Shown here: piece by piece, positions 824 through 23,213 of the stretch
How the letters are laid out: each line of letters opens with the position of its first letter
How positions within the stretch are numbered: position 1 is the first letter of the stretch
NCBI GenBank assembly: GCA_937860145.1
Contig: CALMBF010000155.1
Coordinates: forward strand, 123,719-147,718
Reading direction: 5' to 3'
Length of the DNA: 24,000 bases
Origin: an uncultured Geobacter sp.
GTDB lineage: Bacteria > Desulfobacterota > Desulfuromonadia > Geobacterales > DSM-12255
Program-made: the position numbers and the translations under genes
Notes under the pieces: model-generated
Told to the model about the DNA's origin: nothing
What the model saw: only the letters and a program-made list of their open reading frames with translations
Database searches by the model: none

Positions 824-840
824 CAGCCATCCTTCGCAAC

Positions 841-876
841 AAAAAAGCCCCCGTGATTTTCATGGGGGCTTTTTTG
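841..876. terminator. Bidirectional intrinsic terminator between convergent genes
   Basis: aaaaaAGCCCCCgtgattttcatGGGGGCTttttt: a GC stem flanked by an A-run and a T-run, between the + CDS ending at 823 and the - CDS ending at 918. Confidence 0.85.
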
Positions 877-917
877 TCGGGTAACCGTGAACCGTTCTCT
901 TCACATGCCTATCGGTA

Positions 918-2459: not shown

Positions 2460-2526
2460 GGTGGTCTCCTTTCGTGGTCTTGCAATCTGTCCGTTAGTTG
2501 GAAGTTGCCGGAATGAGCGCATTAGG

Positions 2527-2636
2527 GCTATTTCGTCGAAATTCCTGCGAATGAAGCGTTAACAGTCGATGTTGTTTGAGCCCGTAGGGCGAGTTCATCG
2601 ACTGTAGCGAAATGAGCATGGAATTACAGAAATAGC
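2527..2636. repeat. About 110-nt imperfect inverted repeat (long stem-loop) in the beta3-alpha3 intergenic gap
   Basis: GCTATTTC (2527-2534) pairs with GAAATAGC (2629-2636). ACAGTCGATG (2562-2571) pairs with CATCGACTGT (2596-2605). Apical hairpin GCCCgtaGGGC at 2580-2590. Confidence 0.6.
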
Positions 2637-2683
2637 ACGTCAGCGCGAATGCAGGCGGCTTGCAACTGCCGCACTCCTCATCC

Positions 2684-4755: not shown

Positions 4756-4807
4756 CAAAAAAACCGGAGATCTCCTGTGCGCACGTCACGCAGGGACCTC
4801 CGGTTTT
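4756..4807 (-). terminator. Intrinsic terminator after metK
   Basis: On the minus strand: AACCGGAG..(28 nt)..CTCCGGTT followed by TTTTTTT (the A-run at 4756-4763 on the plus strand). Confidence 0.7.
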
Positions 4808-4874
4808 CCGGTTGGCATGATTTCTCGATAAATTGTGTCGATTACACGTACAGCTCTCTGCACATATGGTGACT

Positions 4875-6107: not shown

Positions 6108-6165
6108 AAAAAAAGGCCAAGCAGGGTAGTGCATCCCGACTTGGCCTCCAGTGTGTCTGGTGGAA
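6108..6165 (-). promoter_or_regulatory. metK 5' leader: motif copy A (CCAGacacaCTGG-A-GGCCAAG...CTTGGCC-U7), candidate riboswitch or attenuator with an intrinsic terminator
   Basis: Read on the minus strand: cacaacggttccaCCAGacacaCTGGAGGCCAAGtcGGGatgcactaCCCtgCTTGGCCttttttt, ending 52 nt upstream of the metK ATG. Confidence 0.6.
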
Positions 6166-6255: not shown

Positions 6256-6286
6256 CTACAAAAAATGTAGTTTATAACTGTCGCTC

Positions 6287-6333
6287 GCTGACCAGAGAAC
6301 TGGAGGCCGGAAAATCTTTTTCCGGCCTTTTTT
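6287..6333 (+). promoter_or_regulatory. Leader motif copy B (GCTGA-CCAGagaaCTGG-A-GGCCGG...CCGGCC-T6) upstream of the tautomerase gene
   Basis: It lies downstream of the predicted promoter and 35 nt upstream of the GTG at 6368. No plus-strand gene upstream needs a terminator here. Confidence 0.6.
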
Positions 6334-8082: not shown

Positions 8083-8194
8083 CGGGAGCTGGTACGATGA
8101 TCGTTCATCGTTAATCCGGTGGTTGAGCGGTGGCGGAGGAGGCACGTCATGCGAACGGAGTCACCGCTCAACTACCGACTGTGGAGAATCGTTC

Positions 8195-9016
8195 GTGATA
8201 CAACTTGATCTGGACACCCGGCTCCTGGCCGAAAATTATGACGAGCTGAGCGACTACCAGTTCGACAATGGTCGACGTCTACTGGAACTGCTCGATATCC
8301 GGCCCAACTCACGGGTCCTCGACATCGGCTGCGGTACGGGCCGTCTCGGGCTCCTGGTCGCGGAGTCCCTTGGTGACGACGGAAGGCTCATCGGCATTGA
8401 CCCTCTGCCCGAGCGGATCAGGATCGCCTGCAGCAAGAAGGCCCCGGCCAATGCGCGCTTTCAGGTCGGGGTGGGTGAGGACCTCGGTTTTCTCGACTGC
8501 GAGAGCATTGATGTCGTCTTTCTGAGTGCGGTATTCCACTGGATTGCCAACAAGGAGAAAGCGCTGCGGGAAATAGCCCGGGTGCTCAAGCCGGGGGGAC
8601 GGATCGGCCTTACCACGGGAGCCAGGGAGTTGGCCCGGGAAGCAACGTACCGCAAGATTACGGATCGGGTTCTGCTTCGCCTACCGTACAACAAGGTAGT
8701 CAATATCGAGGATTATGTCTTTACCCGGCACGGCGTTACCGCAACCCAGCTGGTACAGCACTTCCTCGGCGCCAAGCTGGCCGTGCAGAGCGTCGACATC
8801 CGCAAGCGATGCAAGTATTTCCGCAGCGGGATGGAGATTGTCGATTTTCTTGAATCGAGCACCTTCGGCAACTATCTGCAGCATGTGCCCGGCAACTTGC
8901 GGGAGGATGCCCGACGTGAGATCATTCTCGAGTTCGATAGCCTGAAGGCCGGTGGCCAGGTCGAGTTTACCGGGTTCACCATCTTTGCCGTGGCGGAGAA
9001 GCCGCTGGTGGATTGA
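8195..9016 (+). CDS. Class I SAM-dependent methyltransferase, paralog 1, 273 aa
   Basis: GTG at 8195 after GGAGAA. Motif I is VLDIGCGTGRLG. It aligns end to end (roughly half the residues identical by eye) with 16353..17171. The upstream part of the track ORF (from 8123) is unsupported. Confidence 0.8.
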   Translation: MIQLDLDTRLLAENYDELSDYQFDNGRRLLELLDIRPNSRVLDIGCGTGRLGLLVAESLGDDGRLIGIDPLPERIRIACSKKAPANARFQVGVGEDLGFLDCESIDVVFLSAVFHWIANKEKALREIARVLKPGGRIGLTTGARELAREATYRKITDRVLLRLPYNKVVNIEDYVFTRHGVTATQLVQHFLGAKLAVQSVDIRKRCKYFRSGMEIVDFLESSTFGNYLQHVPGNLREDARREIILEFDSLKAGGQVEFTGFTIFAVAEKPLVD

Positions 9017-10658: not shown

Positions 10659-12857
10659 GTGCATCCAGTGTATCTTGACTACAATGCAACTACTCCGGTT
10701 GACCCCCTGGTGGTTGATGAGCTGCTCCCCTGGTTGCAGGAAGGGTTCGGCAATCCATCCAGTAATCACCCGTACGGCCAGCGTGCCAAACATGCAGTGG
10801 AGCAGGCTCGTTCGCGGGTGGCGTCACTGCTTGGCGCGCATCCGGCGGAGATTATATTTACCAGCGGTGGTACCGAGGCAAACAATCAGGCGCTGATCGG
10901 GGTTGCCCTGGCCAACTGCGAGCGGGGTCGGCATATCATCACGTCGTCCATTGAACACCCGGCAGTCCTGAATCCGCTCCACTGGCTGGAGGGGCAGGGG
11001 TTCAACATCACCTATCTCCCCGTGGACAGCTCCGGACGGGTAGATCCGGAGACGTTGCGCCAGGCCATCACCTGCGAGACAATTCTCGTCAGCGTGATGC
11101 ATGCCAACAACGAGGTGGGGACTATCCAGCCGCTGGCCGAGATCGGCGCCATCGCCCGGGAACACGGCATTCTGCTGCACACCGATGCCGCCCAGTCGGT
11201 GGGGAAGATCCCGACGAGGGTGGATGAACTGGGGGTGGACCTGCTGACCATTGCCGGCCACAAGTTTTATGCCCCCAAGGGGATCGGCGCCCTCTATGTG
11301 CGCACGGGGGTGAAGATTGATCCCTACCTGCATGGCGCCGGACACGAAGGGGGCCGTCGGGCGGGGACCGAAAACGTCCCCTATATCGCCGCACTGGGTA
11401 AGGCGGCAGAACTGGCGGGCCAGCGGTTGGCCAGCGAAGGGGAGCGCATTCGTGAGCTGCGGGACCGCTTCCATGCCCGGCTGAACGAACTGGTTGACGG
11501 GGTCCTGCTGAATGGCCACCCCACCGAGCGCCTCCCCAACACTCTCAACATCAGCTTCAGCGACGTGGTCGGGGCTGATCTGCTGTCCCGTATTCCGGAG
11601 ATGGCCGCTTCCACCGGTTCGGCCTGTCATGACGGCAGCGGCGAGCTGTCCGGCGTGCTCAAGGCCATGGGGGTGCCACGGGAGCAGGGTTTCGGCGCCA
11701 TCCGCTTCAGCCTCGGCCGGCTTACCACCGCCGAGGAGCTGGAACGGGCAGCAGAGCTTGTTGCGACCAGGGTCAGGGAAATTCGCGCCATCCGGGGTGG
11801 TGTTTCCCATAATCACGTTCAGACCGGGCTCTCCGCCCTGGCTTCCTGCGCCGGTTGAGCGGCCAAGATAAGTCCTCAGGACCTGGCTCAAGTTTTGAGT
11901 CAGCTACCAAGCATTACCGACCCGAATGTACTCATCGGCACCAAAACCGCCGATGATGCCGCCGTTTACCGTGTGAACGATGATCTGGCCATCGTGCAGA
12001 CGGTGGACTACTTTACTCCGGTGGTGGACGACCCCTATCTGTTCGGCCAGATTACCGCTGCCAACTCCCTGTCCGATATCTATGCCATGGGGGCTACGCC
12101 TCTCTTTGCTCTGAACATAGCCGGGTTTCCATCCGATACGCTTCCCTTGGATGTTCTGGCCAGGATTCTCCAGGGGGGTGCTGACAAGGCGGCGGAAGCA
12201 GGCATCAGCATCATCGGCGGCCATACCATCAAGGATGCGGAGCCGAAATACGGCATGGCGGTCACCGCGGTGATCCATCCCGACCAGGTGATCAGTAACG
12301 CCGGGGCCAAACCGGGTGACCGGCTGATCCTCACCAAGCCGCTGGGAATCGGGATTATTACGACTGCCATGAAAAGCGGCAAGGTTACAGAAAAGACCGT
12401 TGCCGAAGTTGTCGCTGTCATGGCGAGTCTGAACAGGAGTGCCGCAGAGGCGATGGTTGTGGTCGGAGCCCATGCCTGCACCGACGTGACCGGTTTCGGA
12501 TTCCTCGGCCATCTTTCCGAAATGGTCCGTGGAAGCGGCGTCGGCGCGGTGATCAGCGTGTCGAGGGTGCCGGTGCTGGAAGAGGCCTGGAGTCTGGTGC
12601 GTGAGGGGATTGCTCCGGGCGGCAGCCGACGCAACCTGGAATTTTTGCGCGACCGGCTCACGGTAGAAACGGGTGTCAGCGAAGAGGAGCTGCTTGTCCT
12701 GGCCGATGCCCAGACCTCTGGCGGGTTGCTGATAGCATTGCCGGCAGACGACGTTGACCGGTTAGAGACGGAACTTGCCGGACGGGGTGTGACAGATGTT
12801 GCCGAAATCGGCGAGATTGTGGCCGATCCCGACAGCCGGATCACCCTGAGACCCTAG
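10659..12857 (+). CDS. selD: NifS-like cysteine desulfurase/selenocysteine lyase fused to selenophosphate synthetase; in-frame UGA (Sec) at 11856-11858; 732 aa
   Basis: GTG after AAGGAGG. The N-terminal domain has the PLP Lys context GHKFYAPKG and the active-site motif GSAC. Reading through the TGA gives ...SCAG-U-AAKISPQDLAQVL..., matching the SelD G-x-G-C/U-x-x-K-I-S-P active site. The rest is SelD-like (DDAAVY, VDYFTP, TDVTGFG). Confidence 0.8.
11859..11899 (+). other. Candidate SECIS-like stem-loop immediately 3' of the UGA
   Basis: GCCAagataaGTCCtcaGGACcTGGC at 11862-11887, followed by CTCAAgttTTGAG at 11887-11899. Confidence 0.4.
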
Positions 12858-12868
12858 GGATATCAGAC

Positions 12869-13645
12869 ATGGCAACCGGCTTGCAACTGGGCACCCTGTT
12901 CATGCTCGGCATGTCCGGAGGGTTTTTGTCCGGACTCCTGGGCATTGGCGGCGGCATTGTCATGCTGCCGCTCCTCATATCGCTGCCACAGTTAACGGGT
13001 TTTTCCATCGGTCTCCGTCCGGCTGTCGGGATTACCATGCTCCAGAGCCTGAGTGGATCCCTGTCGGGCATGCTGATCCATCGCAGGCACGATGTCTTCG
13101 ACGTTCCCCTTGCCCTCACGGTAGGGGTGTGCGCCGCTGCCGGATCAATGGGGGGAGCTCTCTTTTCCAGCCTGGTGAGTGAGCGGTGCATGGCGATCCT
13201 TTTTGCCGTGATGGCGTTAACAAGCCTGCTGCTTCTGCTCTTACCCGAATCCGGGGAGTTGCCATCAACTGATAGCACATGCCCGAAGCGCTTTCCTGCC
13301 GCATCGCTGCTGGGGGGTGGTGTCGGTTTTTGTGCCGGGATCATCGGCCAGGGGGGCGCATTCATCATCCTTCCCCTCTTGATTCATCTGCTGAAGGTAC
13401 CGGTGCGGACGGCAATCGGTACGACCGTCGCAGTCTCGTTTTTATCCGCAGCTGCCGGATTCATCGGTAAATGGAGCACCGGACAGGTCCCCCTGCTCTG
13501 GGGAGTCGCCGTGGCATCCGGAGCGCTGCTGGGGGGGCAGCTGGGGGGTATGGTCAGCCACCGGTTATCGACAATCACCCTGCGTCGAATCCTGTTCCTG
13601 GTGGTTGCGGTCAGCATGCTGCGTATATTTGCCCACGTCCTTTAG
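12869..13645 (+). CDS. TauE/SafE (DUF81) family anion exporter-like membrane protein, 258 aa
   Basis: Gly-rich TM1 (GGFLSGLLGIGGGIVMLPLL) and an internal repeat (GIIGQGGAFIILPLL) are typical of the TauE family. Confidence 0.75.
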   Translation: MATGLQLGTLFMLGMSGGFLSGLLGIGGGIVMLPLLISLPQLTGFSIGLRPAVGITMLQSLSGSLSGMLIHRRHDVFDVPLALTVGVCAAAGSMGGALFSSLVSERCMAILFAVMALTSLLLLLLPESGELPSTDSTCPKRFPAASLLGGGVGFCAGIIGQGGAFIILPLLIHLLKVPVRTAIGTTVAVSFLSAAAGFIGKWSTGQVPLLWGVAVASGALLGGQLGGMVSHRLSTITLRRILFLVVAVSMLRIFAHVL

Positions 13646-13699
13646 AAACCTTGCGGATTGCTATTGTCAGCGTAACTGAGACGTTAGCGGAGGTACTAC

Positions 13700-14287
13700 A
13701 TGCTTCTGTGGCACATCTTCATTCTCTTTACCCGGGTATCCCTGTTCTCCTGGGGAGGCGGACCTGCCTCCCTGGCGCTGATGCAACGGGAAACCACCAC
13801 TGCCCTCTGGAAGCCACCTGGTAGTGCCTCAACGTCTCCCTGGGTAACACCCCTGGAATTTTCCGATGCCGTGGCGGTGGGGAATGCACTTCCAGGACCG
13901 ATTGCACCCCAGGTTTCCGCCTATATTGGATATAAGATGGCCGGAGTGCCGGGTGCCGTCGCTGCTGCGGCCGGGACGGTACTGCCGACGACGATACTGA
14001 TGCTGTTCATGGTGGCCTGTTTTTTTCGCATCAAGGAGAGTCTGCTGGTCCAGTCCATGCTCCGGGCCGTCCGCCCGGTGGTGGTGGGACTGCTGCTCTG
14101 GACCGCCTATGACATGGCGATAACGGTTTTCGGGGTCAAACGGCTCGGGCTTGTGCAGTCGTTCTCCCTGGGATGGGATAAGCTGCTCATTGTGGCAGTG
14201 TCGTTTGCGGTACTGACCCTGACGGAAATCAATCCGGCCCTGGTTGTTCTGGTAGCGGCCGTAGCGGGCGGCGTGGTGTACCGTTGA
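13700..14287 (+). CDS. Chromate-transporter (CHR) family half-size protein, 195 aa
   Basis: FTRVSLFSWGGGPASLALMQRE and ...GNALPGPIAPQV... resemble short-chain ChrA proteins. Only one half-size gene is present. Confidence 0.7.
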   Translation: MLLWHIFILFTRVSLFSWGGGPASLALMQRETTTALWKPPGSASTSPWVTPLEFSDAVAVGNALPGPIAPQVSAYIGYKMAGVPGAVAAAAGTVLPTTILMLFMVACFFRIKESLLVQSMLRAVRPVVVGLLLWTAYDMAITVFGVKRLGLVQSFSLGWDKLLIVAVSFAVLTLTEINPALVVLVAAVAGGVVYR

Positions 14288-15876: not shown

Positions 15877-15905
15877 TTGACACATACCTTTAATGGCAGT
15901 ATATA
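15877..15905 (+). promoter_or_regulatory. Strong sigma70-like promoter (TTGACA-N17-TATATA)
   Basis: TTGACA at 15877-15882 and TATATA at 15900-15905 in the AT-rich gap after the PLP-enzyme gene. Confidence 0.65.
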
Positions 15906-15955
15906 CGATATAAGTAATAGACATTATCGTTTATTTTGCCGAACAAAATATTTCA

Positions 15956-16000
15956 GCTGACCAGATAACTGGAGGCCAGGATTTTTCCTGGCCTTTTTTT
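15956..16000 (+). promoter_or_regulatory. Leader motif copy C (GCTGA-CCAGataaCTGG-A-GGCCAGG...CCTGGCC-T7)
   Basis: It lies about 45 nt downstream of the predicted transcription start and about 115 nt upstream of the Nfu start, in a leader-terminator arrangement. Confidence 0.65.
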
Positions 16001-16114
16001 GTTCATGACAGCTGCTGGAGACTGTAGAACTTAGTTCATGATTGAAGTTGTACATCAACAGGAGCTATACAACTTCAAGTGAATAAACGCATTGCCGATA
16101 GGGAGGATGAATAC

Positions 16115-16336
16115 ATGACTGCAGAGGTTGAAACTGTTCTGGATCTTGTCCGGCCAGCGTTACTGGCGGACGGGGGAAATGTGGAGCTGGTGGAGATTAC
16201 CGAGGATGGTTTTGTGAAGGTGCAGCTGACTGGAGCCTGTGGCCACTGTCCCATGTCGGCACAGACGCTTAAGTTAGGTGTTGAACGGACCCTGAAGAGC
16301 AAGCTCCCCTGGGTAAAAGGAGTGCTGTCAATTTAG
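16115..16336 (+). CDS. Nfu/NifU C-terminal-domain Fe-S cluster carrier protein, 73 aa
   Basis: ATG at 16115 after [24 protein letters not shown]...GACGHCPMS is the NifU C-terminal CxxC signature. Confidence 0.85.
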
Positions 16337-16352
16337 TTTTCCGGAGATAACG

Positions 16353-17171
16353 ATGATATCCCTTGCGCTTGATAACAGTAAACTCGCCAAAACCTACGAC
16401 GAAATCAGCGATTCCCAGTACGAGTCCGGCAAGAAGCTGCTTGCCGAACTCAAAGTCAAACCGGGTGAGACCGTGCTCGACATCGGCTGCGGCACCGGTC
16501 GGCTCGGACTCTACCTGCTCGATATTATCGGTCCGACCGGCCGTTTCATCGGCATCGATCCGCTGCCGGAGCGTATCAGTATTGCCAATGACAATAATGT
16601 TCACCCTAACGCCGAATTCCGTACCGGTGTGGCTGAAGACCTCTCGTTTCTGGGGAACAACAGCGTCGACCTGGTCTACCTGAGCGCCGTGTTCCACTGG
16701 GTACCCGATAAGCAGAAGGCATTGCAGGAGATCAGCCGGGTGTTGAAGCCGGGTGGCAGGATCGGTTTGACCACCAACGCCAAGGAGTTGGTTAAGGCGA
16801 CCACCCTCCGTTCCGTGACCACGGAGGTGTTATCTCGGGTTCCCTATCGCGGCCAAGTGGATGCCGAGGCTTTTGCCCCGACCCGCCACGGGGTGACAGC
16901 CACCCAGCTGGTTGAGCTCTTTCTCGATGCGGGATTCAGGGTTGCGGACGTCCGTGTCCTGGCCATCGAGCGTTTGTACCATACCGGACGTGATATCGTC
17001 GACTTTGCCGAAGCAAGTACCTTTGGCAATTACCTGAACCACGTGCCGGCAGATTTGCGGGATAAAGCCCGTTTTGACCTGGAGAGCGCCTTTGAGATAC
17101 TGCGTGGTGACGAGGGGATTCCGTTTCAGCTATATACACTTTTTGCCATTGCCGAAAAGATCGGCGCCTGA
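16353..17171 (+). CDS. Class I SAM-dependent methyltransferase, paralog 2, 272 aa
   Basis: Motif I is VLDIGCGTGRLG. Collinear with 8195..9016 (shared blocks LSAVFHW, VLKPGGRIGLTT, RHGVTATQLV, STFGNYL.HVP). Confidence 0.85.
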   Translation: MISLALDNSKLAKTYDEISDSQYESGKKLLAELKVKPGETVLDIGCGTGRLGLYLLDIIGPTGRFIGIDPLPERISIANDNNVHPNAEFRTGVAEDLSFLGNNSVDLVYLSAVFHWVPDKQKALQEISRVLKPGGRIGLTTNAKELVKATTLRSVTTEVLSRVPYRGQVDAEAFAPTRHGVTATQLVELFLDAGFRVADVRVLAIERLYHTGRDIVDFAEASTFGNYLNHVPADLRDKARFDLESAFEILRGDEGIPFQLYTLFAIAEKIGA

Positions 17172-17248
17172 CAGGGATGGATACATCTGGACTGCCTGGC
17201 TGATCTGATGATGGTCTGATGCGATAAAGTAATGGGTAATATTTTTGT

Positions 17249-17314
17249 GCTGACCGGCAAAGCCGGAGGTGCCTGATGCGCATGTGCGCATGGCCCTCCG
17301 GCTTTTCTTTTTTT
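17249..17314 (+). promoter_or_regulatory. Motif copy D (GCTGA-CCGGCaaaGCCGG-AGG) merged with a strong intrinsic terminator, between the methyltransferase and alpha1
   Basis: AAGCCGGAGG (17260-17269) pairs with CCTCCGGCTT (17295-17304), with an inner ATGCGCAtgTGCGCAT, followed by TTCTTTTTTT. The alpha1 RBS follows 20 nt later. Confidence 0.65.
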
Positions 17315-17345
17315 GCAACCGACAATAGAGGAGAGAGGTGTACGT

Positions 17346-18875
17346 ATGGGATTGAAAGAAGACCGGGTTGTCCCCGGCAGGGAAGACCGGGTAGCGGCCT
17401 GCATGGCCTATGGCGGCAGCGCCTGCAGTATCGGCGGCGAAAGCAAGGCATGTCTGAAGAACAGCGAGCGGGGTTTTTCCCAGGCCGGCATCTGCCAGCT
17501 ACTGCCGACCTTGGGGATGCTCCTGACCCTGCCGGATATTGCCGTGATCATCCATGGCGCCATCGGCTGCGGTTCTGCCGGGTTCGGTATGAATGTCAGT
17601 ATTCGCCTGCATCATCTGCTCCGCGGCAATCCCAATGCCAAGGACAGCCTATGGTTCAGTACCAACCTGGATGAGGCGGATGTGGTGCATGGCGGCGAAC
17701 AGCGGCTGGAGGAGACTATCCTCACTGTAAACGAACGCTACAAACCGAAATCCATCGTCGTGGTGCAGACCTGCACCCCGTCCATCATCGGCGATGATCT
17801 CGTGGGGGTGGTGGAAAAAGTCCGGCCGCTGGTGGAGGCCAACATACTCTATGCCCACTGCGAAGGGTTCAAGACCAAGGTCTGGGCCACCGGCTATGAC
17901 GTGGCTTTTCATGCCATGATTCACGGTTACATAGAAAAGGACAAGGAGGGGCCGCCGCCACGAAAAGCCCCCTGGCAACCGGGACAGCGGCCGACGGTCA
18001 ATGTCATCAACCTGGCCTCCGTCGGCAAGCCGGACGAGGAGGAGATCGAACGGCTCCTCAATGCCATCGGCATCGATGTGACCATCGGCCCCAACTTCGC
18101 CGACCGGGAAAAGGTGCGGCAGCTGACTCAGGCCGACCTGACGGTCAGCATCTGCCCGACCCATGACGACTACCTGGTCGATTACCTGCACACCGAGTAC
18201 GGCATCCCCTTCGTCCTGAAGGACATGCCGATCGGCCTGGAGAATACCCGCAACTGGTTGCTGGATATTGCGGGCAAATTCGGTCTGGAAAAGGAGGCGC
18301 TGGCCCTGATAGAGGCCGAGGAGGCCAGGGCGCGCACAGCGGTGGAGCGCTTCCTTCCCGTGCTGAAGGGGATCCGGGTATTTCTCTCCGCCGGTGAGTT
18401 CCGGGCGCTGGTTACCGGCGGGCTGTTCCAGGAGCTGGGGATGGAGATCGTCGGGGTACGCTCCTACCACCATGACGAGTTCGGCACCGATTTCTACGGC
18501 CGGCTGGTAAACGGTCAGCAGGGGAAGGACTTCCCGGTGGATATCGCCAATTTCCAGCCCTTCGAACTGGTCAATCTGTTGCAGCAGGTCAAGCCGGACC
18601 TCTTTGCCGGCCATATCTGGGACAACGCCTGGGCCGCCCGCCTCGGCTATCCCACCATCACCATCTTCCGCATCTTCGACTACTACGTCGGCTACCGCGG
18701 TTTCTATGAAGTGGCAAAAAAGGCGGCCCGCATCCTGCGCAACCATTCGTTCAATGCCAATCTGAGCAGAAACGTTACCGATGCCTACCGCCCGGAGTGG
18801 TATGAGCAGAACGCTTTCAAATACATCAAGTCAGGGCTGCCTGAGGGTCTGCAATCGGATACAGCTGCAGTGTAA
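17346..18875 (+). CDS. Nitrogenase-like alpha-type subunit (NifD/NifE-like), paralog alpha1, 509 aa
   Basis: ATG at 17346 after GGAGAGAGG. Motifs IHGAIGCGS, QTCTPSIIGDD, AHCEGFK and SICPTHDDY..EYGIP. Collinear with alpha3. Confidence 0.9.
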   Translation: MGLKEDRVVPGREDRVAACMAYGGSACSIGGESKACLKNSERGFSQAGICQLLPTLGMLLTLPDIAVIIHGAIGCGSAGFGMNVSIRLHHLLRGNPNAKDSLWFSTNLDEADVVHGGEQRLEETILTVNERYKPKSIVVVQTCTPSIIGDDLVGVVEKVRPLVEANILYAHCEGFKTKVWATGYDVAFHAMIHGYIEKDKEGPPPRKAPWQPGQRPTVNVINLASVGKPDEEEIERLLNAIGIDVTIGPNFADREKVRQLTQADLTVSICPTHDDYLVDYLHTEYGIPFVLKDMPIGLENTRNWLLDIAGKFGLEKEALALIEAEEARARTAVERFLPVLKGIRVFLSAGEFRALVTGGLFQELGMEIVGVRSYHHDEFGTDFYGRLVNGQQGKDFPVDIANFQPFELVNLLQQVKPDLFAGHIWDNAWAARLGYPTITIFRIFDYYVGYRGFYEVAKKAARILRNHSFNANLSRNVTDAYRPEWYEQNAFKYIKSGLPEGLQSDTAAV

Positions 18876-18909
18876 ATATACCTGATGACTATCAATTCTT
18901 CCGTAAATT

Positions 18910-19013
18910 CCTTCTCCCTCAGGGAGAAGGTGGCCTCAGGCCGGATGAGGGTGGTAACAGTGCCATTATGCACCATTTCCCCCTCACCCTAGCCCTCTCC
19001 CTCAGGGAGAGGG
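18910..19013. repeat. REP-like element: inverted pair of CCYTCTCCC-tca-GGGAGARGG hairpins in the alpha1-beta1 gap
   Basis: Hairpins at 18910-18930 and 18993-19013, plus GGCCtcaGGCC at 18932-18942. The two halves are approximately reverse-complementary. Confidence 0.65.
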
Positions 19014-19074
19014 GACTCTGTATAAGCTGTAGTGGCAGGTACGATTAAATTAATTACCAAGGAGTAACATCCAT

Positions 19075-20412
19075 ATGAGCACATTTATTGAACGCCCCCG
19101 CTACCAGTGCGCCCTCGGCGGCGCGCTGGTTACCATCAATGCCATTGAACGGGCAGTGGCAATTGTCCACGCTTCACCCGGGTGCGCTGCGGCTGCCGAT
19201 GGCGCCGCTGCCTTTGGCGGCGGCTACTGGGGGTCCACCGTCCACGACGGCCGGGCCACCCCGAGCAGTAACATCGTCGAGCGTGAAGTCATCTTCGGCG
19301 GTGAGGAGCGGCTTGCCGAGCAGATCAGCGCCACCCTCGATGTGGTCGACGCCGATCTCTACGCGGTCATCACCGGCTGCATGACCGACATCATCGGCGA
19401 CGATGTCCGCTCGGTGGTGAACGAGTTCCGCAGACAGGGGAAACCGGTCATAGTAGCCGAAACCGGCGGCTTCAAGGGAAACTCCACCGTCGGCTACGAA
19501 TTTCTCTGGGATGCACTGATCAACCAGTTCGTCTCAAAGGGGCTGCCGAAAAAAGACCGGCTGGTCAACATTTTCGGTGTGCTGCCGGTACAGGATGTTT
19601 TCTGGCGCGGCAACCTGCTCGAACTGAAAAGGCTGCTGTCAGCCATCGGCATCGAGGCCAACACCTTTGTTACCCCGTTCGATGACACCGCGTCGCTGAA
19701 AAACGCCTCCCAGGCGGCTCTTTCGATCGTCCTTTCCGATGTCCACGGTCAAAAGGCCGCCGCTCTTTTCGAGGAGGTACACGGGGTGCCGTATATCACC
19801 GAGTCCCTCCCGTTCGGCCCGACGGCGACGGAACGGTTCCTGCGCCGGATCGCAGAACTCTTCAACATCTCCTCGGCAAAGCTGAACCGGGTACTGAAGG
19901 AAGAGCGCCGGCACTATTACCAGTTCATCAATCCGCTGACCGATCTCTTTACCGACCAGGATTTCCAGCGTTTCGGCGTGGTCATCGGCAATGCCAATTA
20001 CGCTTACGCGGTGAGTCGCTTCATCGCCGACGATCTCGGCTGGATTCCCTATTTTGCGGCCATCACCGATATTCTGGATGAACAGCAGCAGGCAGCGGTA
20101 CTGGCGCGTTTTGCCACGATTCCCGAACAGGCGCGCCCCAAGGTCATTTTCGAGACCGACACCAGCCGGATCAGGGAGCGGCTGTTTGCCGAACTGGAAA
20201 AGGAGAATGATCCTTACGGGACCCCGATCAGTCCGGCATTCGTTATCGGCAGTAACCTCGACCGTCCTCTGGCTGCGGATCTGAAGGCCGGCTTCTGGGG
20301 CGTATCCTATCCGATTACCAACCGGGTTGTGACCGACCAGGGTTATCTCGGCTATCGTGGCGGCCTGCGCTTGGCGACCGAGGTTGTCAGCGCACTTGTT
20401 AGCAACCGATAA
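19075..20412 (+). CDS. Nitrogenase-like beta-type subunit (NifK/NifN-like), paralog beta1, 445 aa
   Basis: Motifs YQCALGGAL, IVHASPGCAA and TGCMTDIIGDD. AAGGAG RBS. Close paralog of beta3. Confidence 0.9.
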   Translation: MSTFIERPRYQCALGGALVTINAIERAVAIVHASPGCAAAADGAAAFGGGYWGSTVHDGRATPSSNIVEREVIFGGEERLAEQISATLDVVDADLYAVITGCMTDIIGDDVRSVVNEFRRQGKPVIVAETGGFKGNSTVGYEFLWDALINQFVSKGLPKKDRLVNIFGVLPVQDVFWRGNLLELKRLLSAIGIEANTFVTPFDDTASLKNASQAALSIVLSDVHGQKAAALFEEVHGVPYITESLPFGPTATERFLRRIAELFNISSAKLNRVLKEERRHYYQFINPLTDLFTDQDFQRFGVVIGNANYAYAVSRFIADDLGWIPYFAAITDILDEQQQAAVLARFATIPEQARPKVIFETDTSRIRERLFAELEKENDPYGTPISPAFVIGSNLDRPLAADLKAGFWGVSYPITNRVVTDQGYLGYRGGLRLATEVVSALVSNR

Positions 20413-20424
20413 AGGAGAGCATGT

Positions 20425-21897
20425 ATGGCAATCAATCTAAATCTTTCCGAAGCACCGATCCGCGAGGCTCGTCTCGGGGCCATCACCGGCTATAACGGTA
20501 CCCTCAAGGATCTGGTCAGCCGTAGCGGTTGCGGTGCAACGATCAATAACTGCGAGCGGAGTTTCAGCCAGACCAGTTCCTGCAGCTCCGGCTGTGCCCA
20601 GACCCTTCTGGCAAACATTGTCGATGCGGCAATTGTCAATCACGCTCCCATCGGCTGTGCCGGCGACACCATTTATCACAACATCGCCAACCATTACGGC
20701 CGCTTCTACCGTGGGCAGGATAACCGCAACATCCAGTTGATCAACACCAATATCGAAGAGTCGGACACGGTGTTCGGCGGTGCTGAAAAGCTGCGGGCCG
20801 GGATTCTGGAGGCATGGCGACGTTTCAAGCCGAAGGCGATTTTCGTCAGCACCTCCTGTGCCTCGGGGATTATCGGGGACGATATCAAGGGGGTTATCAG
20901 CGACCTGGGGGAAGAGGTCCCGATTCCGGTCATTCCGGTCTCCTGTGAAGGGTTTCGCAGCAAGGTCTGGGCCTCCGGATTCGATGCCGCCTTTCATGCG
21001 GTTCTGACCGGTATCGTCAAGCCTCCCCGGCGGTCACAGCCGAACCTGGTGAACATGGTCAACTTCCGTGGCAGTGCCCGGGAGTATATCACCCGACTGT
21101 TCGGCAGACTCGGCCTTGAGCCGCGCTTTATTCTCCCCTTTGCCTCGGTGGAGGAGCTGGAAACCATCTCCGAGGCGGCGGTGACCGCCACGGTCTGCAC
21201 CACCCTTGGCAGTTATATCGGCACGGCTCTGGAAGAGCAGTACGGCGTTCCCTATGTGAAAACCATTCCGCCCCACGGTGTTGCCGGTATCGAGGCCTGG
21301 CTGCGCGGCATCGCAGCTGCTGTCGGCAAGCAGGGTGAGGTGGAGGAGCTGATCGCCGAAGAGCGTGCCGCCACTGTCGACGATCTTGCCGAGATCCGTC
21401 GCCGCCTGGACGGAAAGACTGCCGTATTGGGGATGGGGCCCAGTTATGCCCAGTCTTACCTCGGGGTGCTGGAAGAGCTGGGGATAACGGTTCTGCACGC
21501 TGCCAGCTGGCACTATGACCAGCGTTATGACTATGGCGAGCAGCCGCCGGCCATTTTGCGCGCTGCCGGCCGGGAAGAGGACGTCACCTTCAGCGTCGGT
21601 GACCAGCAGCTGTTCGAGATCGGCAACAAGCTCTCCAGGGTCAAGCCCGATCTCTATTTCTCCCGTCACCCCGGCAGTTCGGTCTGGGGCGCCAAGCTGG
21701 GGATAACCGCTGTCCCGGTTATCGATGAGTACACCGCTTTCGGTCATCGTGGCCTTGTGAACTTCGGCTATCGGATCATCGATGCCCTGACCAACCGGCA
21801 CTTTGTCACCAAACTGGCGGAGCGGGTAACACTCCCCTACACGACCTGGTGGTTCGAACAGGACCCCTATTCATTTCTTGAGCAGGAGGTAATCTGA
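20425..21897 (+). CDS. Nitrogenase-like alpha-type subunit, divergent paralog alpha2, 490 aa
   Basis: Motifs NHAPIGCAGD, STSCASGIIGDD, VSCEGFRSKVWASGFDAAFHA and TVCTTLGSY..QYGVP. AAGGAGAG RBS 12 nt after the beta1 stop. Confidence 0.9.
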   Translation: MAINLNLSEAPIREARLGAITGYNGTLKDLVSRSGCGATINNCERSFSQTSSCSSGCAQTLLANIVDAAIVNHAPIGCAGDTIYHNIANHYGRFYRGQDNRNIQLINTNIEESDTVFGGAEKLRAGILEAWRRFKPKAIFVSTSCASGIIGDDIKGVISDLGEEVPIPVIPVSCEGFRSKVWASGFDAAFHAVLTGIVKPPRRSQPNLVNMVNFRGSAREYITRLFGRLGLEPRFILPFASVEELETISEAAVTATVCTTLGSYIGTALEEQYGVPYVKTIPPHGVAGIEAWLRGIAAAVGKQGEVEELIAEERAATVDDLAEIRRRLDGKTAVLGMGPSYAQSYLGVLEELGITVLHAASWHYDQRYDYGEQPPAILRAAGREEDVTFSVGDQQLFEIGNKLSRVKPDLYFSRHPGSSVWGAKLGITAVPVIDEYTAFGHRGLVNFGYRIIDALTNRHFVTKLAERVTLPYTTWWFEQDPYSFLEQEVI

Positions 21898-23213
21898 TGG
21901 CAGGACCGATAGAACAGATACGAAACGTCTGCGCCCTGGGCGCACTGCAGTCGGTGGTGGCGATTCAGCGGGCAATCCCCATAATCCATGCCGGCCCGGG
22001 GTGCGGACAGAAACTATGGAGCGGACTCTCCAACGGCAACGGTTTCCAGGGGGCGAGTTATGTCGGGGGTCATGCGGTTCCCTGCAGCAATGCTACGGAA
22101 AAGGAGGTGGTTTTCGGCGGCGAGGACAAGCTTCGGGAAACGGTGGAAAACACTCTCAAGGTCATGGATGGCGACCTCTTTGTGGTGTTGACCGGCTGCA
22201 CCTCCGACATCGTCGGCGATGATGTGGGGGAGGTGGTGCGCAGCTTCAAAAACAAAGGGACGCCAATCGTCTACGTGGAAACCGGTGGCTTCAAGGGTGA
22301 CAACTACTTTGGCCATGAACTGCTCTGGGAGGCGATTATCGAGCAGTTTCTGGAAAAATCAGACAGGATGGAGCAGGGGCTGGTGAATGTCTGGAGTGTC
22401 ATCCCCTATCAGGACCCCTACTGGACCGGTACCTTGCATGCCATTGCCGACCTGCTCCGCTCCATCGGGCTCAAGCCGAACATCATCTATGGACCGGGGG
22501 AAGGGGTCGCTTCGGTGCGCAAGATCCCGTCAGCCCAGTTTAACCTGCTCATCTCTCCTTGGGCCGGCCTGAAAACGGTCAAGCGACTGGAAGAGAAGTT
22601 CGGTACACCCTTTTTCCATTACCCGGCGCTCCCCATTGGTGCCACCGAGAGCGGCTCCTTCCTGCGGTCAGTCGGCAGCTTTGCCGGCATCCCGGTATCA
22701 CGGGTGGAGGAGACCATCAAACGGGAGGAGGAGCGTTACTATTATTACGTGGAGCGGTCAGCCGATCTGCTCTTCGAGACCCGCTTCCTCCCCGGCCATT
22801 TCGTTACCATTGCCGACAGCTTCTATTCCCTGGGCCTGACACGCTTCCTGATCAATGATCTGGGGCTGATTCCCGAAGTGCAGTTCGTTACCGAAGCCGT
22901 GCCTGAAGAGTTCCGGCCGCTGGTGGAGACGGAGTTCGCCAGGTTCGATGAAGGCCTGGTGTCGCCGGTGCACTACGGCGCCGATGGAGCAACGGTGCGT
23001 GACGAACTGGCGAAACACAAATTCCGCGAACGGCCACTCATTCTCGGCAGCAGCTGGGACCGGGTAATAGCCCGGGAACTGAAAGGGTATCCGTTGTCGG
23101 TCGCCATGCCGGTCAGCGACCGGCTGGTGCTGAGCCGCACCTATGCTGGCTATGACGGGGCGCTTCGGTTGACGGAGGATATCTACTCCGTGATCCTGGG
23201 CAGCTTCCAGTAG
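21897..23213 (+). CDS. Nitrogenase-like beta-type subunit, divergent paralog beta2, 438 aa
   Basis: Motifs NVCALGAL, IIHAGPGCGQ and TGCTSDIVGDD. The start overlaps the alpha2 stop (cTGATGg). Confidence 0.9.
   Translation: MAGPIEQIRNVCALGALQSVVAIQRAIPIIHAGPGCGQKLWSGLSNGNGFQGASYVGGHAVPCSNATEKEVVFGGEDKLRETVENTLKVMDGDLFVVLTGCTSDIVGDDVGEVVRSFKNKGTPIVYVETGGFKGDNYFGHELLWEAIIEQFLEKSDRMEQGLVNVWSVIPYQDPYWTGTLHAIADLLRSIGLKPNIIYGPGEGVASVRKIPSAQFNLLISPWAGLKTVKRLEEKFGTPFFHYPALPIGATESGSFLRSVGSFAGIPVSRVEETIKREEERYYYYVERSADLLFETRFLPGHFVTIADSFYSLGLTRFLINDLGLIPEVQFVTEAVPEEFRPLVETEFARFDEGLVSPVHYGADGATVRDELAKHKFRERPLILGSSWDRVIARELKGYPLSVAMPVSDRLVLSRTYAGYDGALRLTEDIYSVILGSFQ

What the first reader, a model, noticed from the sequence alone, without database searches (positions are those of the whole stretch)
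15877..16000. Copy C: promoter, structured leader, motif and terminator ahead of the Nfu-methyltransferase-nitrogenase-like operon
A near-consensus TTGACA-N17-TATATA promoter is followed by a leader of about 90 nt. The leader has two hairpins (GATAtaagtaatagacatTATC and TATTTTGccgaaCAAAATA), then GCTGA-CCAGataaCTGG-A and the terminator GGCCAGG/CCTGGCC-T7. A terminator placed after a strong promoter and before the first gene only makes sense as conditional termination. This puts the plus-strand nitrogenase-like operon under the same signal as metK.
Basis: seen in the sequence. Interest (0 to 1): 0.75.

Follow-up and report, generated by a model that had tools for sequence, protein, structure and literature searches.

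The report
Sulfur-regulon antiterminator hairpin with terminator
The flagged leader is one of five copies in this window of a tiny, very conserved RNA hairpin that overlaps a transcription terminator; the same element sits ahead of sulfur-acquisition genes in more than ten bacterial phyla, matches no Rfam family, and probably acts as a switch that lets transcription through when sulfur is scarce.

Summary
The sequence features are real. TTGACA-N17-TATATA lies at 15877-15905, the motif GCUGA-CCAG-AUAA-CUGG-A-GGC at 15956-15976, and the terminator GGCCAGGA/UCCUGGCC-U7 at 15974-16000. The motif is a 21-nt hairpin: P1 is GCU/GGC, the internal loop is GA/A, P2 is 4 bp and the loop is 4-5 nt. Its 3' strand forms the base of the terminator's 5' arm. 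A covariance model finds exactly five copies in the window: ahead of metK, after metK, ahead of the divergent operon, ahead of Nfu-methyltransferase, and inside that operon before the nitrogenase-like genes. These come from Geobacteraceae, Actinomycetota, Bacillota, Chloroflexota, Nitrospirota, Terriglobia and others. The sites precede sulfonate or sulfate transporters, cysK, metK, sulfite reductase, ATP sulfurylase, tauD and nitrogenase-like genes. Rfam 15 has no matching family. The only precedent found is an unnamed 2010 attenuator cluster in bacilli. A DUF2292/YezD/OscA-like small-protein gene lies 6-170 nt upstream of the hairpin in 39 loci. Best reading: an ON-type, sulfur-limitation attenuator. 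The effector is unknown; the DUF2292 protein is favoured, and a tiny riboswitch is the main rival.

The parts
15877..15905 (+). Putative sigma-70 promoter of copy C: TTGACA (15877-15882), 17-nt spacer, TATATA (15900-15905). The predicted start is near 15912.
   Evidence: Read directly from the sequence. It is not listed by the promoter scan because the -10 lacks the final T. Unverified.
15956..15976 (+). Copy C antiterminator hairpin. P1 is GCU(15956-58)/GGC(15974-76). The internal loop is GA(15959-60)/A(15973). P2 is CCAG(15961-64)/CUGG(15969-72). The loop is AUAA.
   Evidence: The covariance model scores it at 36.8 bits, E = 3.6e-8. Alone it folds exactly this way at -7.3 kcal/mol, z = -3.7. 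Covariation was counted.
15974..16000 (+). Copy C intrinsic terminator: GGCCAGGA / UCCUGGCC followed by U7. Its first three nucleotides are the 3' strand of P1.
   Evidence: Terminator scan. Folds at -19.1 kcal/mol, z = -4.8. In the full leader the terminator replaces P1.
16115..23213 (+). Operon controlled by copies C and D: NifU-like (16115-16336), methyltransferase (16353-17171) and four Oxidored_nitro genes (17346-18875, 19075-20412, 20425-21897, 21897-23213).
   Evidence: Pfam scans. The start of the first nitrogenase-like gene was re-set to ATG 17346, downstream of copy D.
17249..17316 (+). Copy D, inside the operon: GCUGA-CCGG-CAAAG-CCGG-A-GGU plus a terminator. The terminator's 3' arm CCUCCGGC pairs with GCCGGAGG, which is the 3' half of the hairpin.
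   Evidence: Covariance model 20.2 bits, E = 0.0013. Sequence. The fold at -37.3 kcal/mol shows the terminator consuming P1 and P2.
6108..6165 (-). Copy A, the metK leader: UUCCA-CCAG-ACACA-CUGG-A-GGC plus the terminator GGCCAAG...CUUGGCC-U7. The metK ATG is at 6056.
   Evidence: Covariance model 26.1 bits. Sequence, fold, and metK domains.
6287..6333 (+). Copy B, the leader of the divergent operon (small tautomerase-like ORF at 6369, through to the Cys/Met PLP enzyme ending at 15816): GCUGA-CCAG-AGAA-CUGG-A-GGC plus a terminator.
   Evidence: Covariance model 34 bits. Sequence, terminator scan.
4757..4816 (-). Copy E, between metK (stop at 4875) and DUF1638 with two Oxidored_nitro genes: GCCAA-CCGG-AAAA-CCGG-A-GGU plus a terminator that pairs with the whole 3' half of the hairpin.
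   Evidence: Covariance model 26.2 bits. Sequence. Folds at -34.4 kcal/mol.

Best explanation
**What it is**
- Copy C is a transcription attenuator from a widespread, apparently undescribed family.
- The first structure that nascent RNA can form is a 21-nt hairpin: P1 is G-Y-Y/G-G-Y, the internal loop is N-A/A, P2 is 4 bp, and the loop is 4-5 nt.
- The 3' strand of the hairpin is also the base of the 5' arm of a strong intrinsic terminator, or in copies D and E half of that arm.

**How it most likely works**
- Left alone, the terminator (-19 to -37 kcal/mol) displaces the weak hairpin (-7 kcal/mol) and transcription stops before the genes.
- When an effector holds the hairpin closed, the base of the terminator cannot form and RNA polymerase reads through. 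It is therefore an ON switch.
- The genes under its control are almost all sulfur-acquisition or Cys/Met/SAM genes, so the effector should report sulfur limitation.
- All five window copies would respond together: metK, the two nitrogenase-like clusters, and the transporter/SelD-like/PLP operon.
- The most likely effector is a trans-acting small protein of the DUF2292/YezD/OscA-like family. Its gene sits immediately upstream of the hairpin in many phyla, the same layout as hutP, licT and glcT. That gene is not in this window.

**Shown versus inferred**
- Shown: the motif, its pairing, its overlap with the terminator, its distribution, its gene context, and its linkage to DUF2292.
- Inferred: that termination is conditional, the ON logic, the sulfur signal, and the identity of the effector.
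For: **Copies and distribution**
- The window holds five copies and no other covariance-model hit above 14 bits.
- The three bases upstream of the searched pattern that form the 5' strand of P1 are G-Y-Y in 115 of 127 sites, so this conservation is independent of the search.

**Pairing**
- 98% of pair positions form standard pairs across 144 sequences.
- P1 shows G-C changing to A-U six times. P2 shows A-U changing to G-C fourteen times.
- Further P2 variants are CUGG/CCAG and CUCG/CGAG, UUGG/CCAA and UCGG/CCGA in Bacillus ssu leaders, and CUAG/CUAG in B. mycoides.
- G-U pairs, fixed strand orientation and fixed adjacency to terminators place the element at the RNA level.

**Overlap with the terminator**
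- All five window copies show it, as does L132.

**Gene context**
- Downstream genes include NMT1-type ABC transporters, TauE, TauD, PALP/CysK, metK, NIR_SIR, ATP-sulfurylase, rhodanese, NifH-, NifB- and NifDK-like genes, and URO-D.
- In Actinomycetota and Bacillus a promoter lies directly upstream of the hairpin.

**Signal is probably not SAM**
- SAM-I riboswitches occur in the same operons at other positions.
- Geobacter uses S-boxes for metIC and metX (PMC545781).

**DUF2292 linkage**
- The small protein matches PF10055. Its nearest NCBIfam model is 'sulfur starvation response protein OscA'.
- The gene is present in 53 of 118 loci. In 39 of them it ends 6-170 nt upstream of the hairpin on the same strand.
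- Divergent copies are also seen in Terriglobia.
- Samples chosen by DUF2292 alone, without reference to the motif, also carry the motif: G. daltonii, B. mycoides and Bacillus sp. N5-665.
Against: - No expression, termination or binding data were available.
- DUF2292 is not basic. Its predicted fold, one helix plus a beta-hairpin at pLDDT 71, matches no known RNA-binding protein.
- In G. daltonii the DUF2292 genes directly precede NifH-like genes with no hairpin in between.
- In some Actinomycetota the DUF2292 gene lies downstream of the hairpin.
- Many sites have no DUF2292 gene nearby. These include all five in this window (tblastn) and the Bacillus and Paenibacillus ssu or tauD leaders.
- DUF2292 could therefore simply be a co-regulated member of the sulfur-starvation regulon.
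- How a roughly 45-residue domain with no conserved cysteine would sense sulfur is unknown.
- Most sites were collected with a pattern that fixes P2 and the GGCC...GGCC-UUUU frame. This inflates apparent conservation and limits the observable covariation.
Confidence: 0.42

Rival explanations
1. The hairpin is a very small riboswitch. It binds a small sulfur-status metabolite directly, for example O-acetylserine or N-acetylserine accumulating under sulfide shortage, or another Cys/Met pathway intermediate. The ligand-bound hairpin blocks the terminator. DUF2292 is only a co-regulated gene.
For: - About 17 of 21 nucleotides are nearly invariant across ten or more phyla, as is typical of aptamers.
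- The element works as a self-contained unit a few nucleotides from the transcription start in Actinomycetota.
- It occurs at many sites with no DUF2292 gene nearby.
- Compact precedents exist. The HMP-PP riboswitch has a terminator-embedded aptamer (PMC6478431 abstract). The preQ1-I and guanidine-II riboswitches are small too (from my own knowledge).
- It occurs in tandem with SAM-I riboswitches, as in two-input riboswitch arrangements.
Against: - A 7-bp hairpin with a 2x1 internal loop and a variable terminal loop offers little room for a selective pocket.
- No pseudoknot or other tertiary partner is conserved. The upstream flank and the loop both vary.
- The first internal-loop base varies: G 112, C 7, A 5, U 3.
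- The P2 sequence changes freely in Bacillus.
- This reading does not explain the tight upstream linkage of DUF2292.
Confidence: 0.27
2. The hairpin is held closed, or opened, by another trans-acting factor: a different RNA-binding protein, a small RNA, or a general factor such as NusA. Conditional attenuation is real, but neither DUF2292 nor a metabolite is the direct effector.
For: - The general attenuator anatomy is supported.
- Neither candidate effector has direct support.
- Rrf2-type (CymR/IscR-like) regulators lie in 17 of the loci, which shows that other sulfur regulators are nearby.
Against: - No other gene family is linked to the hairpin across phyla in the all-ORF clustering.
- Rrf2 proteins are DNA-binding repressors (established knowledge).
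- CsrA and Hfq are absent from Actinomycetota (established knowledge).
Confidence: 0.12
3. Copy C is just the ordinary terminator of the upstream operon, which ends at 15816. Alternatively, promoter plus roughly 90 nt plus terminator encode a small trans-acting RNA. In either case the conserved hairpin is a stability or termination-efficiency module, not a sensor.
For: - The terminator lies 158 nt downstream of the PLP-enzyme stop codon.
- A promoter, a short transcript and a strong terminator are the anatomy of an sRNA gene.
- Relaxed Rfam hits in the region are all sRNA 3' ends that match only the terminator.
Against: - Copies A and B face each other in a divergent intergenic region with no upstream gene to terminate.
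- Copies D and E sit between genes of one operon.
- metK has no room for another promoter after its terminator.
- In other phyla the unit follows promoters directly and always precedes same-strand sulfur genes.
- A pure terminator module would not need a conserved strand that competes with its own stem.
Confidence: 0.08
4. The conserved sequence is a DNA operator for a dimeric transcription factor (the CCAG-N4-5-CTGG inverted repeat) placed just downstream of promoters.
For: - It contains a short inverted repeat.
- In Actinomycetota it lies 10-15 bp after the -10 element, where repressors often bind.
Against: - Pairing relies on G-U wobbles (U3-G and the CUGG/CCGG variants), which are not complementary in DNA.
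- Orientation relative to the downstream gene and to the terminator is invariant.
- The distance from the promoter ranges from about 10 to more than 70 nt, and some copies lie inside operons.
- The spacer length varies between 4 and 5.
- The flanks GCTGA and AGGCC are not symmetric.
Confidence: 0.03

Closest known systems
HutP / hut operon, and the LicT, SacY and GlcT RAT systems (protein-dependent antitermination in Bacillus)
   Same: - In the RAT systems a short imperfect hairpin overlaps the 5' arm of an intrinsic terminator, and binding of a protein to it allows read-through (PMC5393181 and PMC3575810 abstracts). HutP works at a terminator lying between hutP and the hut structural genes (PMC2425495 abstract).
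- The regulator gene lies directly upstream of its own target terminator (hutP-terminator-hutH, licT-RAT-bglP, from my own knowledge). The layout here is the same: DUF2292 gene, then hairpin and terminator, then sulfur genes.
   Different: - There is no sequence similarity to RAT, and there are no XAG repeats.
- DUF2292 has no CAT/PRD or HutP domain and no shown RNA-binding activity.
- The element spans more than ten phyla and controls a sulfur regulon. A 2025 review of RNA-binding antiterminators does not mention sulfur, cysteine or methionine (PMC12591593).
HMP-PP (thiS motif) riboswitch
   Same: It is an unusually small sensing element almost embedded in an otherwise classic terminator stem, giving a very compact switch (PMC6478431 abstract).
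   Different: - Rfam models give no hit here.
- The consensus and the gene context are different.
- Ligand binding by the present hairpin has not been shown, and the hairpin is smaller still.
SAM-I (S-box) regulon
   Same: It is a termination-control system for Met/Cys genes in many leaders of one genome (established knowledge). It occurs in the same operons as the motif.
   Different: - The S-box aptamer has about 108 positions and a four-way junction.
- It was not detected at any motif site.
- Co-occurrence in tandem argues that the two elements read different signals.
Unnamed attenuator cluster upstream of sulfonate ABC transporter operons in bacilli (Naville & Gautheret 2010, PMC2965389), and the B. 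subtilis ssu leader terminator (van der Ploeg et al. 2001, Mol Microbiol 39:1356)
   Same: - The B. cereus-group and B. licheniformis ssu leader sequences in that paper's Table S3 contain GCUGA-UUGG/UCGG...CCAA/CCGA-A-GGC followed by a terminator. They belong to the same family.
- The title of the 2001 paper states that ssu is regulated at the level of termination (reference seen).
   Different: - The 2010 paper only notes a 'common element' with a possible link to sulfonate metabolism. It gives no structure, distribution or mechanism.
- The 2001 paper could not be read, and I did not check whether the B. subtilis leader carries the motif.
ANTAR antiterminator targets
   Same: A protein-stabilised antiterminator that competes with a terminator (PMC3369931 abstract).
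   Different: ANTAR sites are two tandem hairpins with hexanucleotide loops. Here there is a single hairpin with a variable 4-5-nt loop, and the conserved bases lie in the stems and the internal loop.

Membership tests
GCUGA-hairpin-AGGC sulfur attenuator (family defined here) | P1 is 5'-G-Y-Y paired with G-G-Y-3'. The internal loop is N-A / A. P2 is 4 bp. The loop is 4-5 nt. | tested here: met
   Copy C is GCU-GA-CCAG-AUAA-CUGG-A-GGC. It is the best covariance-model hit in the window at 36.8 bits, and it folds as modelled.
GCUGA-hairpin-AGGC sulfur attenuator (family defined here) | The 3' strand of the hairpin is shared with the 5' arm of an intrinsic terminator that follows at once. | tested here: met
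   GGC at 15974-15976 is both the 3' strand of P1 and the start of the terminator stem.
GCUGA-hairpin-AGGC sulfur attenuator (family defined here) | Located upstream of, and on the same strand as, sulfur-acquisition or Cys/Met/SAM genes. | tested here: met
   NifU-like, methyltransferase and four nitrogenase-like genes lie downstream. NifH-, NifB- and NifDK-like genes are recurrent targets elsewhere. Nitrogenase-like enzymes serve sulfur salvage (PMC11423573 abstract; PMC10418091).
GCUGA-hairpin-AGGC sulfur attenuator (family defined here) | Read-through depends on sulfur status. | not testable with these tools
   No expression data are available.
Intrinsic (Rho-independent) terminator | A G+C-rich stem-loop followed at once by a U-tract. 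| tested here: met
   Nine to eleven pairs followed by U7, at -19.1 kcal/mol.
Sigma-70 promoter | -35 TTGACA and -10 TATAAT with a 16-18-nt spacer, and a mapped start site. | tested here: inconclusive
   The -35 matches 6 of 6 and the spacer is 17 nt. The -10 is TATATA, 4 of 6, without the conserved final T, so the scan does not call it. There is no start-site mapping.
SAM riboswitches (SAM-I, II, III, IV, V, VI and SAM/SAH; Rfam) | A match to the family covariance model. | tested here: not met
   No hit at the gathering threshold or at E <= 10 in the window, or in a 161-nt sub-scan. SAM-I hits in related loci lie at other positions.
Any Rfam 15 family (4227 models, including thiS/HMP-PP, T-box, preQ1 and guanidine) | A match to a family covariance model at the motif. 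| tested here: not met
   The only hits are spurious ones driven by the terminator.
RAT / BglG-LicT antitermination | A RAT consensus hairpin of about 29 nt and a CAT-PRD protein. | tested here: not met
   The consensus is different and only 21 nt long. No CAT-PRD gene appears among the conserved neighbours. The comparison with the RAT consensus is from memory.
ANTAR target RNA | Two tandem hairpins with hexaloops (A at position 1, G at position 4), the second overlapping the terminator. | tested here: not met
   There is a single hairpin with a variable 4-5-nt loop.
Riboswitch (generic) | Direct and selective binding of a metabolite by the RNA. | not testable with these tools
   This needs in-line probing, ITC or in vitro transcription.
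DUF2292/YezD-dependent antitermination (hypothetical) | A DUF2292 gene in the same genome, and the protein binding the hairpin. | not tested
   No PF10055 gene lies in the 24-kb window, and the rest of the genome is unavailable. Linkage is seen in 53 of 118 related loci. Binding is untested.

The most novel reading that the evidence does not exclude
The 21-nt hairpin is itself a riboswitch. It would be the smallest known natural aptamer and the first to read a cysteine-branch or sulfur-starvation metabolite, such as O-acetylserine. It would turn on the whole sulfur-acquisition regulon, including nitrogenase-like sulfur-salvage enzymes and metK, in more than ten phyla.
Probability: 0.25. Interest if true: 0.95.

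Novelty: new variant of a known kind. Interest (0 to 1): 0.82.

Why it matters
- Sulfur assimilation control is known through CysB/Cbl, CymR, the S-box and T-boxes, but only in a few model lineages.
- This element would be a single shared post-initiation switch for sulfate and sulfonate uptake, Cys and Met synthesis, SAM synthesis and nitrogenase-like sulfur-salvage enzymes. It would operate in Geobacteraceae, Actinomycetota, Bacillota, Chloroflexota, Nitrospirota, Acidobacteriota and other phyla.
- It gives a direct handle on when the poorly understood nitrogenase-like (Mar/Nfl-type) clusters are expressed.
- It may explain the termination-level control of the Bacillus ssu operon reported in 2001.
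- It assigns a testable role to DUF2292/YezD/OscA, a family of more than 5,000 small proteins of unknown function.
- Either outcome would be new: a new family of small antiterminator proteins, or a record-small riboswitch.
- The unit of about 45 nt would also be a compact part for synthetic biology.

Tried and rejected
**Searches that gave nothing useful**
- Rfam at the gathering threshold and at E <= 10, on the window, on a 161-nt sub-window and on 18 related loci. Nothing matched at the motif.
- An exact-protein look-up of the window's MetK. It is not on record.
- A metagenome scan anchored on the methyltransferase. It gave only nine distant loci (24-51% identity), none with the motif.
- Ten literature searches. 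They covered riboswitch plus sulfur terms, methylthio-alkane reductase, antitermination, sequence strings, the delta-proteobacterial regulon paper, O-acetylserine and ssu. No description of the motif turned up beyond one sentence and the sequences in PMC2965389.
- The 2001 ssu paper is not held in the library.

**Structural ideas rejected**
- Extending P1 by one or two pairs. These positions pair in only 44% and 39% of sequences.
- A leader-peptide mechanism. The leader has no ORF, and where a DUF2292 ORF precedes the hairpin, its stop codon is usually 20 or more nt from P1.
- The conserved GGAGG acting as a Shine-Dalgarno sequence for a hidden ORF. No start codon follows at a suitable spacing.
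- A T-box-like pairing of UGGA with a tRNA 3' end. It is incompatible with the CCGG, CUAG and CCAA variants.

**DUF2292 structure**
- A sequence search of the PDB and a Foldseek search with an AlphaFold model gave nothing informative.

**Other**
- The weak resemblance between the window's metK leader and the 3' end of a DUF2292 gene in L030 is not convincing. The local alignment is gapped and scores 63.
- The NFACT-R_2 protein at 5-823 is not linked to the motif elsewhere. It occurs in one locus only.
Full report
**1. Observation**

- TTGACA lies at 15877-15882, followed by a 17-nt spacer and TATATA at 15900-15905.
- GCTGA-CCAG-ATAA-CTGG-A lies at 15956-15973.
- The terminator is GGCCAGGA/TCCTGGCC at 15974-15993, followed by seven T at 15994-16000.

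The terminator scan lists the terminator. It folds at -19.1 kcal/mol with z = -4.8.

Two details are weaker.
- The -10 hexamer matches the consensus at only 4 of 6 positions and lacks the final T, so the promoter scan does not report the site.
- The two AT-rich leader hairpins are absent from the minimum-free-energy fold. That part of the leader is not conserved in related sites.

**2. The motif recurs five times in the window**

Pattern searches found the core on both strands where none is expected by chance. A covariance model built from 144 related sequences, run without filters, finds exactly five sites.

| Copy | Coordinates (strand) | Bits | Position |
|---|---|---|---|
| C | 15950-15980 (+) | 36.8 | Ahead of NifU-like and methyltransferase |
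| B | 6281-6311 (+) | 34.0 | Leader of the divergent operon |
| E | 4822-4792 (-) | 26.2 | Between metK and DUF1638 plus two nitrogenase-like genes |
| A | 6171-6140 (-) | 26.1 | metK leader |
| D | 17243-17274 (+) | 20.2 | Between the methyltransferase and the first nitrogenase-like gene |

The next hit scores 13.9 bits and lies inside a coding region. Each of the five is intergenic and is followed at once by a strong terminator.

Pfam assigns the surrounding genes as follows:
- metK, six Oxidored_nitro genes, NifU, two paralogous methyltransferases and DUF1638;
- EamA, a nitroreductase, a class-V aminotransferase and a SelD-like AIRS protein;
- TauE, a chromate-transporter-family protein and a Cys/Met PLP enzyme.

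The window is about 75-78% identical at the DNA level to a Geobacteraceae MAG.

**3. The motif is widespread**

The loci come from the following groups:
- Geobacteraceae and Desulfuromonadales, often with several sites per contig;
- about 25 Actinomycetota MAGs;
- Bacillota, including Paenibacillus, Thermoactinomyces, Metabacillus, Clostridium, Ruminiclostridium and Syntrophomonas;
- Terriglobia, Nitrospirota, Chloroflexota, Armatimonadota, Rokubacteria, Methylomirabilales, Omnitrophota and others.

The three bases just upstream of the pattern that form the 5' strand of P1 were not searched for. They are G-Y-Y (mostly GCU) in 115 of 127 terminator-verified sites. This conservation is independent of the search.

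The covariance model finds three to five copies per 8-kb locus in several Geobacteraceae.

**4. Structure**

GCU pairs with the GGC that begins the terminator. The element is therefore a 21-nt hairpin: P1 has 3 bp, the internal loop is N-A/A, P2 has 4 bp, and the loop has 4-5 nt. Alone it folds exactly this way at -7.3 kcal/mol.

Pair counts on 144 distinct sequences are:
- 98% of pair positions form standard pairs;
- the outer P1 pair is G-C 124, A-U 6 and G-U 3;
- the two other P1 pairs vary only between C and U opposite G;
- the third P2 pair is A-U 129, G-C 14 and G-U 1.

The search pattern fixed most of P2, so the most telling variants come from sites found by other routes.
- CUGG/CCAG, CUGG/CCGG and CUCG/CGAG came from a relaxed search.
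- UUGG/CCAA and UCGG/CCGA occur in Bacillus cereus-group and B. licheniformis ssu leaders published in 2010.
- CUAG/CUAG occurs in B. mycoides.

Extending P1 further is not supported. G-U pairs, strict orientation and strict adjacency to a terminator place the element at the RNA level rather than the DNA level.

**5. What it controls**

I clustered the ORFs within 3 kb downstream of 124 sites and annotated the clusters with Pfam. O-acetylhomoserine sulfhydrylase was recognised by sequence.

| Downstream gene family | Sites or loci |
|---|---|
| NMT1-type sulfonate ABC transporters | about 39 |
| NifB-like radical SAM | 11 |
| NifH-like | 11 |
| TauE | 9 |
| Nitrogenase D/K-like | 8 |
| CysK-type PALP | 8 |
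| metK | 7 |
| URO-D (MtaA-like) methyltransferases | 6 |
| Sulfite reductase | 4 |
| Rhodanese | 4 |
| TauD | 3 |
| ATP sulfurylase, O-acetylhomoserine sulfhydrylase | present, not counted |

This is a sulfur-acquisition regulon. Nitrogenase-like enzymes of this kind are implicated in anaerobic sulfur salvage (PMC11423573 abstract; PMC10418091).

In many Actinomycetota a TTGACA-N17-18-TANNNT promoter ends only 10-15 nt before the hairpin. In the Bacillus ssu leaders a consensus promoter also lies directly upstream. The hairpin plus the terminator is therefore the whole regulatory RNA. No larger aptamer is needed.

**6. Logic of the switch**

In copies A, B and C the terminator stem begins with the 3' strand of P1. 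In copies D and E, and in the B. cereus-group ssu leaders, the 3' arm of the terminator pairs with the entire 3' half of the hairpin. The conserved structure and the terminator are mutually exclusive.

The terminator is much more stable (-19 to -37 against -7 kcal/mol), so termination is the default. The conserved hairpin must be stabilised to give read-through. This makes it an ON switch, and for this regulon the signal should be sulfur limitation. These last steps are inference.

The signal is probably not SAM, for three reasons.
- SAM-I riboswitches occur elsewhere in the same operons in Clostridium loci.
- A SAM-I riboswitch lies immediately upstream of the motif in B. mycoides.
- Geobacter species already use S-boxes for metIC and metX (PMC545781).

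**7. Comparison with known families**

Rfam 15 has no match at any motif site. The only hits there are spurious sRNA matches to the terminator.

The consensus differs from RAT, ANTAR and HutP sites. A 2025 review of RNA-binding antiterminators never mentions sulfur, cysteine or methionine. The Geobacter motifs named in the passages of a 2024 ncRNA survey that I read are different ones (yjbM and nifV); that paper's text never mentions metK, cysK or sulfonate.

The only precedent I found is one sentence in Naville & Gautheret 2010. [quoted passage not shown] Their Table S3 sequences contain this motif.

The title of van der Ploeg et al. 2001 states that the B. subtilis ssu genes are regulated at initiation and termination. 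I could not read that paper or test the B. subtilis leader.

**8. An unexpected partner**

Clustering all ORFs in the loci revealed a small protein of about 45-76 aa. Its conserved core is R-x-G-x-V-x-L-x-[VI]-Q-D-G-x-V-x-Q-I-x-x-x-E-K-x-R.
- It belongs to Pfam DUF2292, with E-values from 5e-14 to 2e-17.
- NCBI names the family 'YezD family protein'.
- The nearest NCBIfam model is 'sulfur starvation response protein OscA', matched below its cutoff.

The gene occurs in 53 of the 118 loci. In 39 of them it ends 6-170 nt upstream of the hairpin on the same strand. These loci come from Geobacteraceae, Actinomycetota, Chloroflexota, Nitrospirota, Bacillota, Armatimonadota, Methylomirabilales and others. 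Divergent copies sit in the same place in Terriglobia.

Samples chosen through the protein, without reference to the motif, also carry the motif.
- Geotalea daltonii has Rrf2, Sbp, DUF2292, a NifH-like gene, the motif, a radical SAM gene, DUF2292, a NifH-like gene and CysK, in that order.
- B. mycoides and Bacillus sp. N5-665 have a SAM-I riboswitch, yezD, then the motif with its terminator, then cysH-sat-cysC.

A regulator gene placed directly upstream of its own target terminator is the layout of hutP, licT and glcT (from my own knowledge).

There is evidence against a direct role.
- DUF2292 is not basic.
- Its AlphaFold model is one helix plus a beta-hairpin at pLDDT 71, and it matches nothing informative.
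- Many sites have no DUF2292 gene nearby, including all five in this window.

**9. Verdict**

Copy C is a genuine member of a widespread, apparently uncatalogued family of sulfur-regulon attenuators.

| Claim | Probability |
|---|---|
| General attenuator model | about 0.85 |
| Effector is the DUF2292/YezD/OscA-like protein | about 0.4 |
| Effector is a small molecule (a very small riboswitch) | about 0.27 |
| Effector is another trans-acting factor | about 0.12 |
| Non-regulatory or sRNA reading | about 0.08 |
| DNA operator | about 0.03 |

The mechanism type is known: an antiterminator competing with a terminator. The RNA family, its regulon and its candidate protein partner are new as far as I could determine.

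**10. Limits**

- Most sites were collected with a pattern that fixes P2 and the terminator frame.
- There is no expression or binding evidence.
- Subscription-journal literature is not covered.

Noticed in passing
window 4757-4816 (-), 6108-6165 (-), 6287-6333 (+), 17249-17316 (+): Four more copies of the same hairpin-plus-terminator unit (E, A, B, D). Copies D and E lie inside operons. In both, the terminator pairs with the whole 3' half of the hairpin, and both use the variant CCGG/CCGG with GGU.
   Followed up: yes
related loci L006-L118 (e.g. L030:5595-5825, L064, L113); L128; L132:4019-4162: A DUF2292/YezD/OscA-like small-protein gene lies directly upstream of the hairpin in 39 loci from many phyla. 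It is absent from the window. It is a candidate trans-acting partner, or alternatively just a co-regulated sulfur-starvation gene.
   Followed up: partly
L132:3837-4235 (Bacillus mycoides p31); L028 and L077 (Clostridium): SAM-I riboswitches and the new motif occur in series in one operon. In B. mycoides the order is S-box, yezD, motif, cysH-sat-cysC. In Clostridium it is metK, motif, a nifB-like gene, then an S-box. This suggests two different inputs.
   Followed up: partly
window 16043-16078 (+): A perfect 9-bp inverted repeat, GAAGTTGTA...TACAACTTC, lies between the copy C terminator and the NifU-like start codon. It could be an RNA hairpin or a protein-binding palindrome.
   Followed up: no
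window 838-878: A strong terminator that can work in both directions (AAAAAAGCCCCCGTGATTTTCATGGGGGCTTTTTTG) lies between the convergent genes at 5-823 and 918-2522. It caused spurious Thr/Phe-leader Rfam hits.
   Followed up: no
window 8123-9016 and 16353-17171; 17313-23213 and 918-4024: The window holds paralogous methyltransferase genes, with 70-87% identity over several stretches at a constant 8158-nt offset. It also holds six Oxidored_nitro genes in three D/K-like pairs with internal repeats. This indicates duplicated nitrogenase-like modules.
   Followed up: no
window 10659-14287: A class-V aminotransferase (cysteine desulfurase or selenocysteine lyase-like), a SelD-like AIRS protein, TauE and a chromate-transporter-family gene lie in the operon behind copy B. 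The regulon may cover selenium as well as sulfur.
   Followed up: no
L062:6538-6640; L118:6300-6448 (Actinomycetota): Motif variants (GUUGA-CCGG-...-CCGG-A-GGC, in tandem in L118) lack a clear U-tract terminator. Their 5' strand can instead pair with a segment just upstream of the Shine-Dalgarno sequence of a sulfate-binding-protein gene. This may be a translational expression platform.
   Followed up: partly
L020:2926-3001; L073:1490-1560: Tandem or partially duplicated hairpins sit ahead of a single terminator in Actinomycetota MAGs.
   Followed up: no
17 loci, e.g. L095:1359-1811, L128:2424-2885, L014:4164-4601: Rrf2-family (CymR/IscR-like) regulator genes lie next to motif-controlled operons. 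In L095 the motif directly precedes one.
   Followed up: no
window 17313-17345: The mechanical ORF start (TTG at 17313) of the first nitrogenase-like gene overlaps the copy D terminator. The likely true start is ATG at 17346, behind a GAGGAGAGAGG ribosome-binding site.
   Followed up: yes
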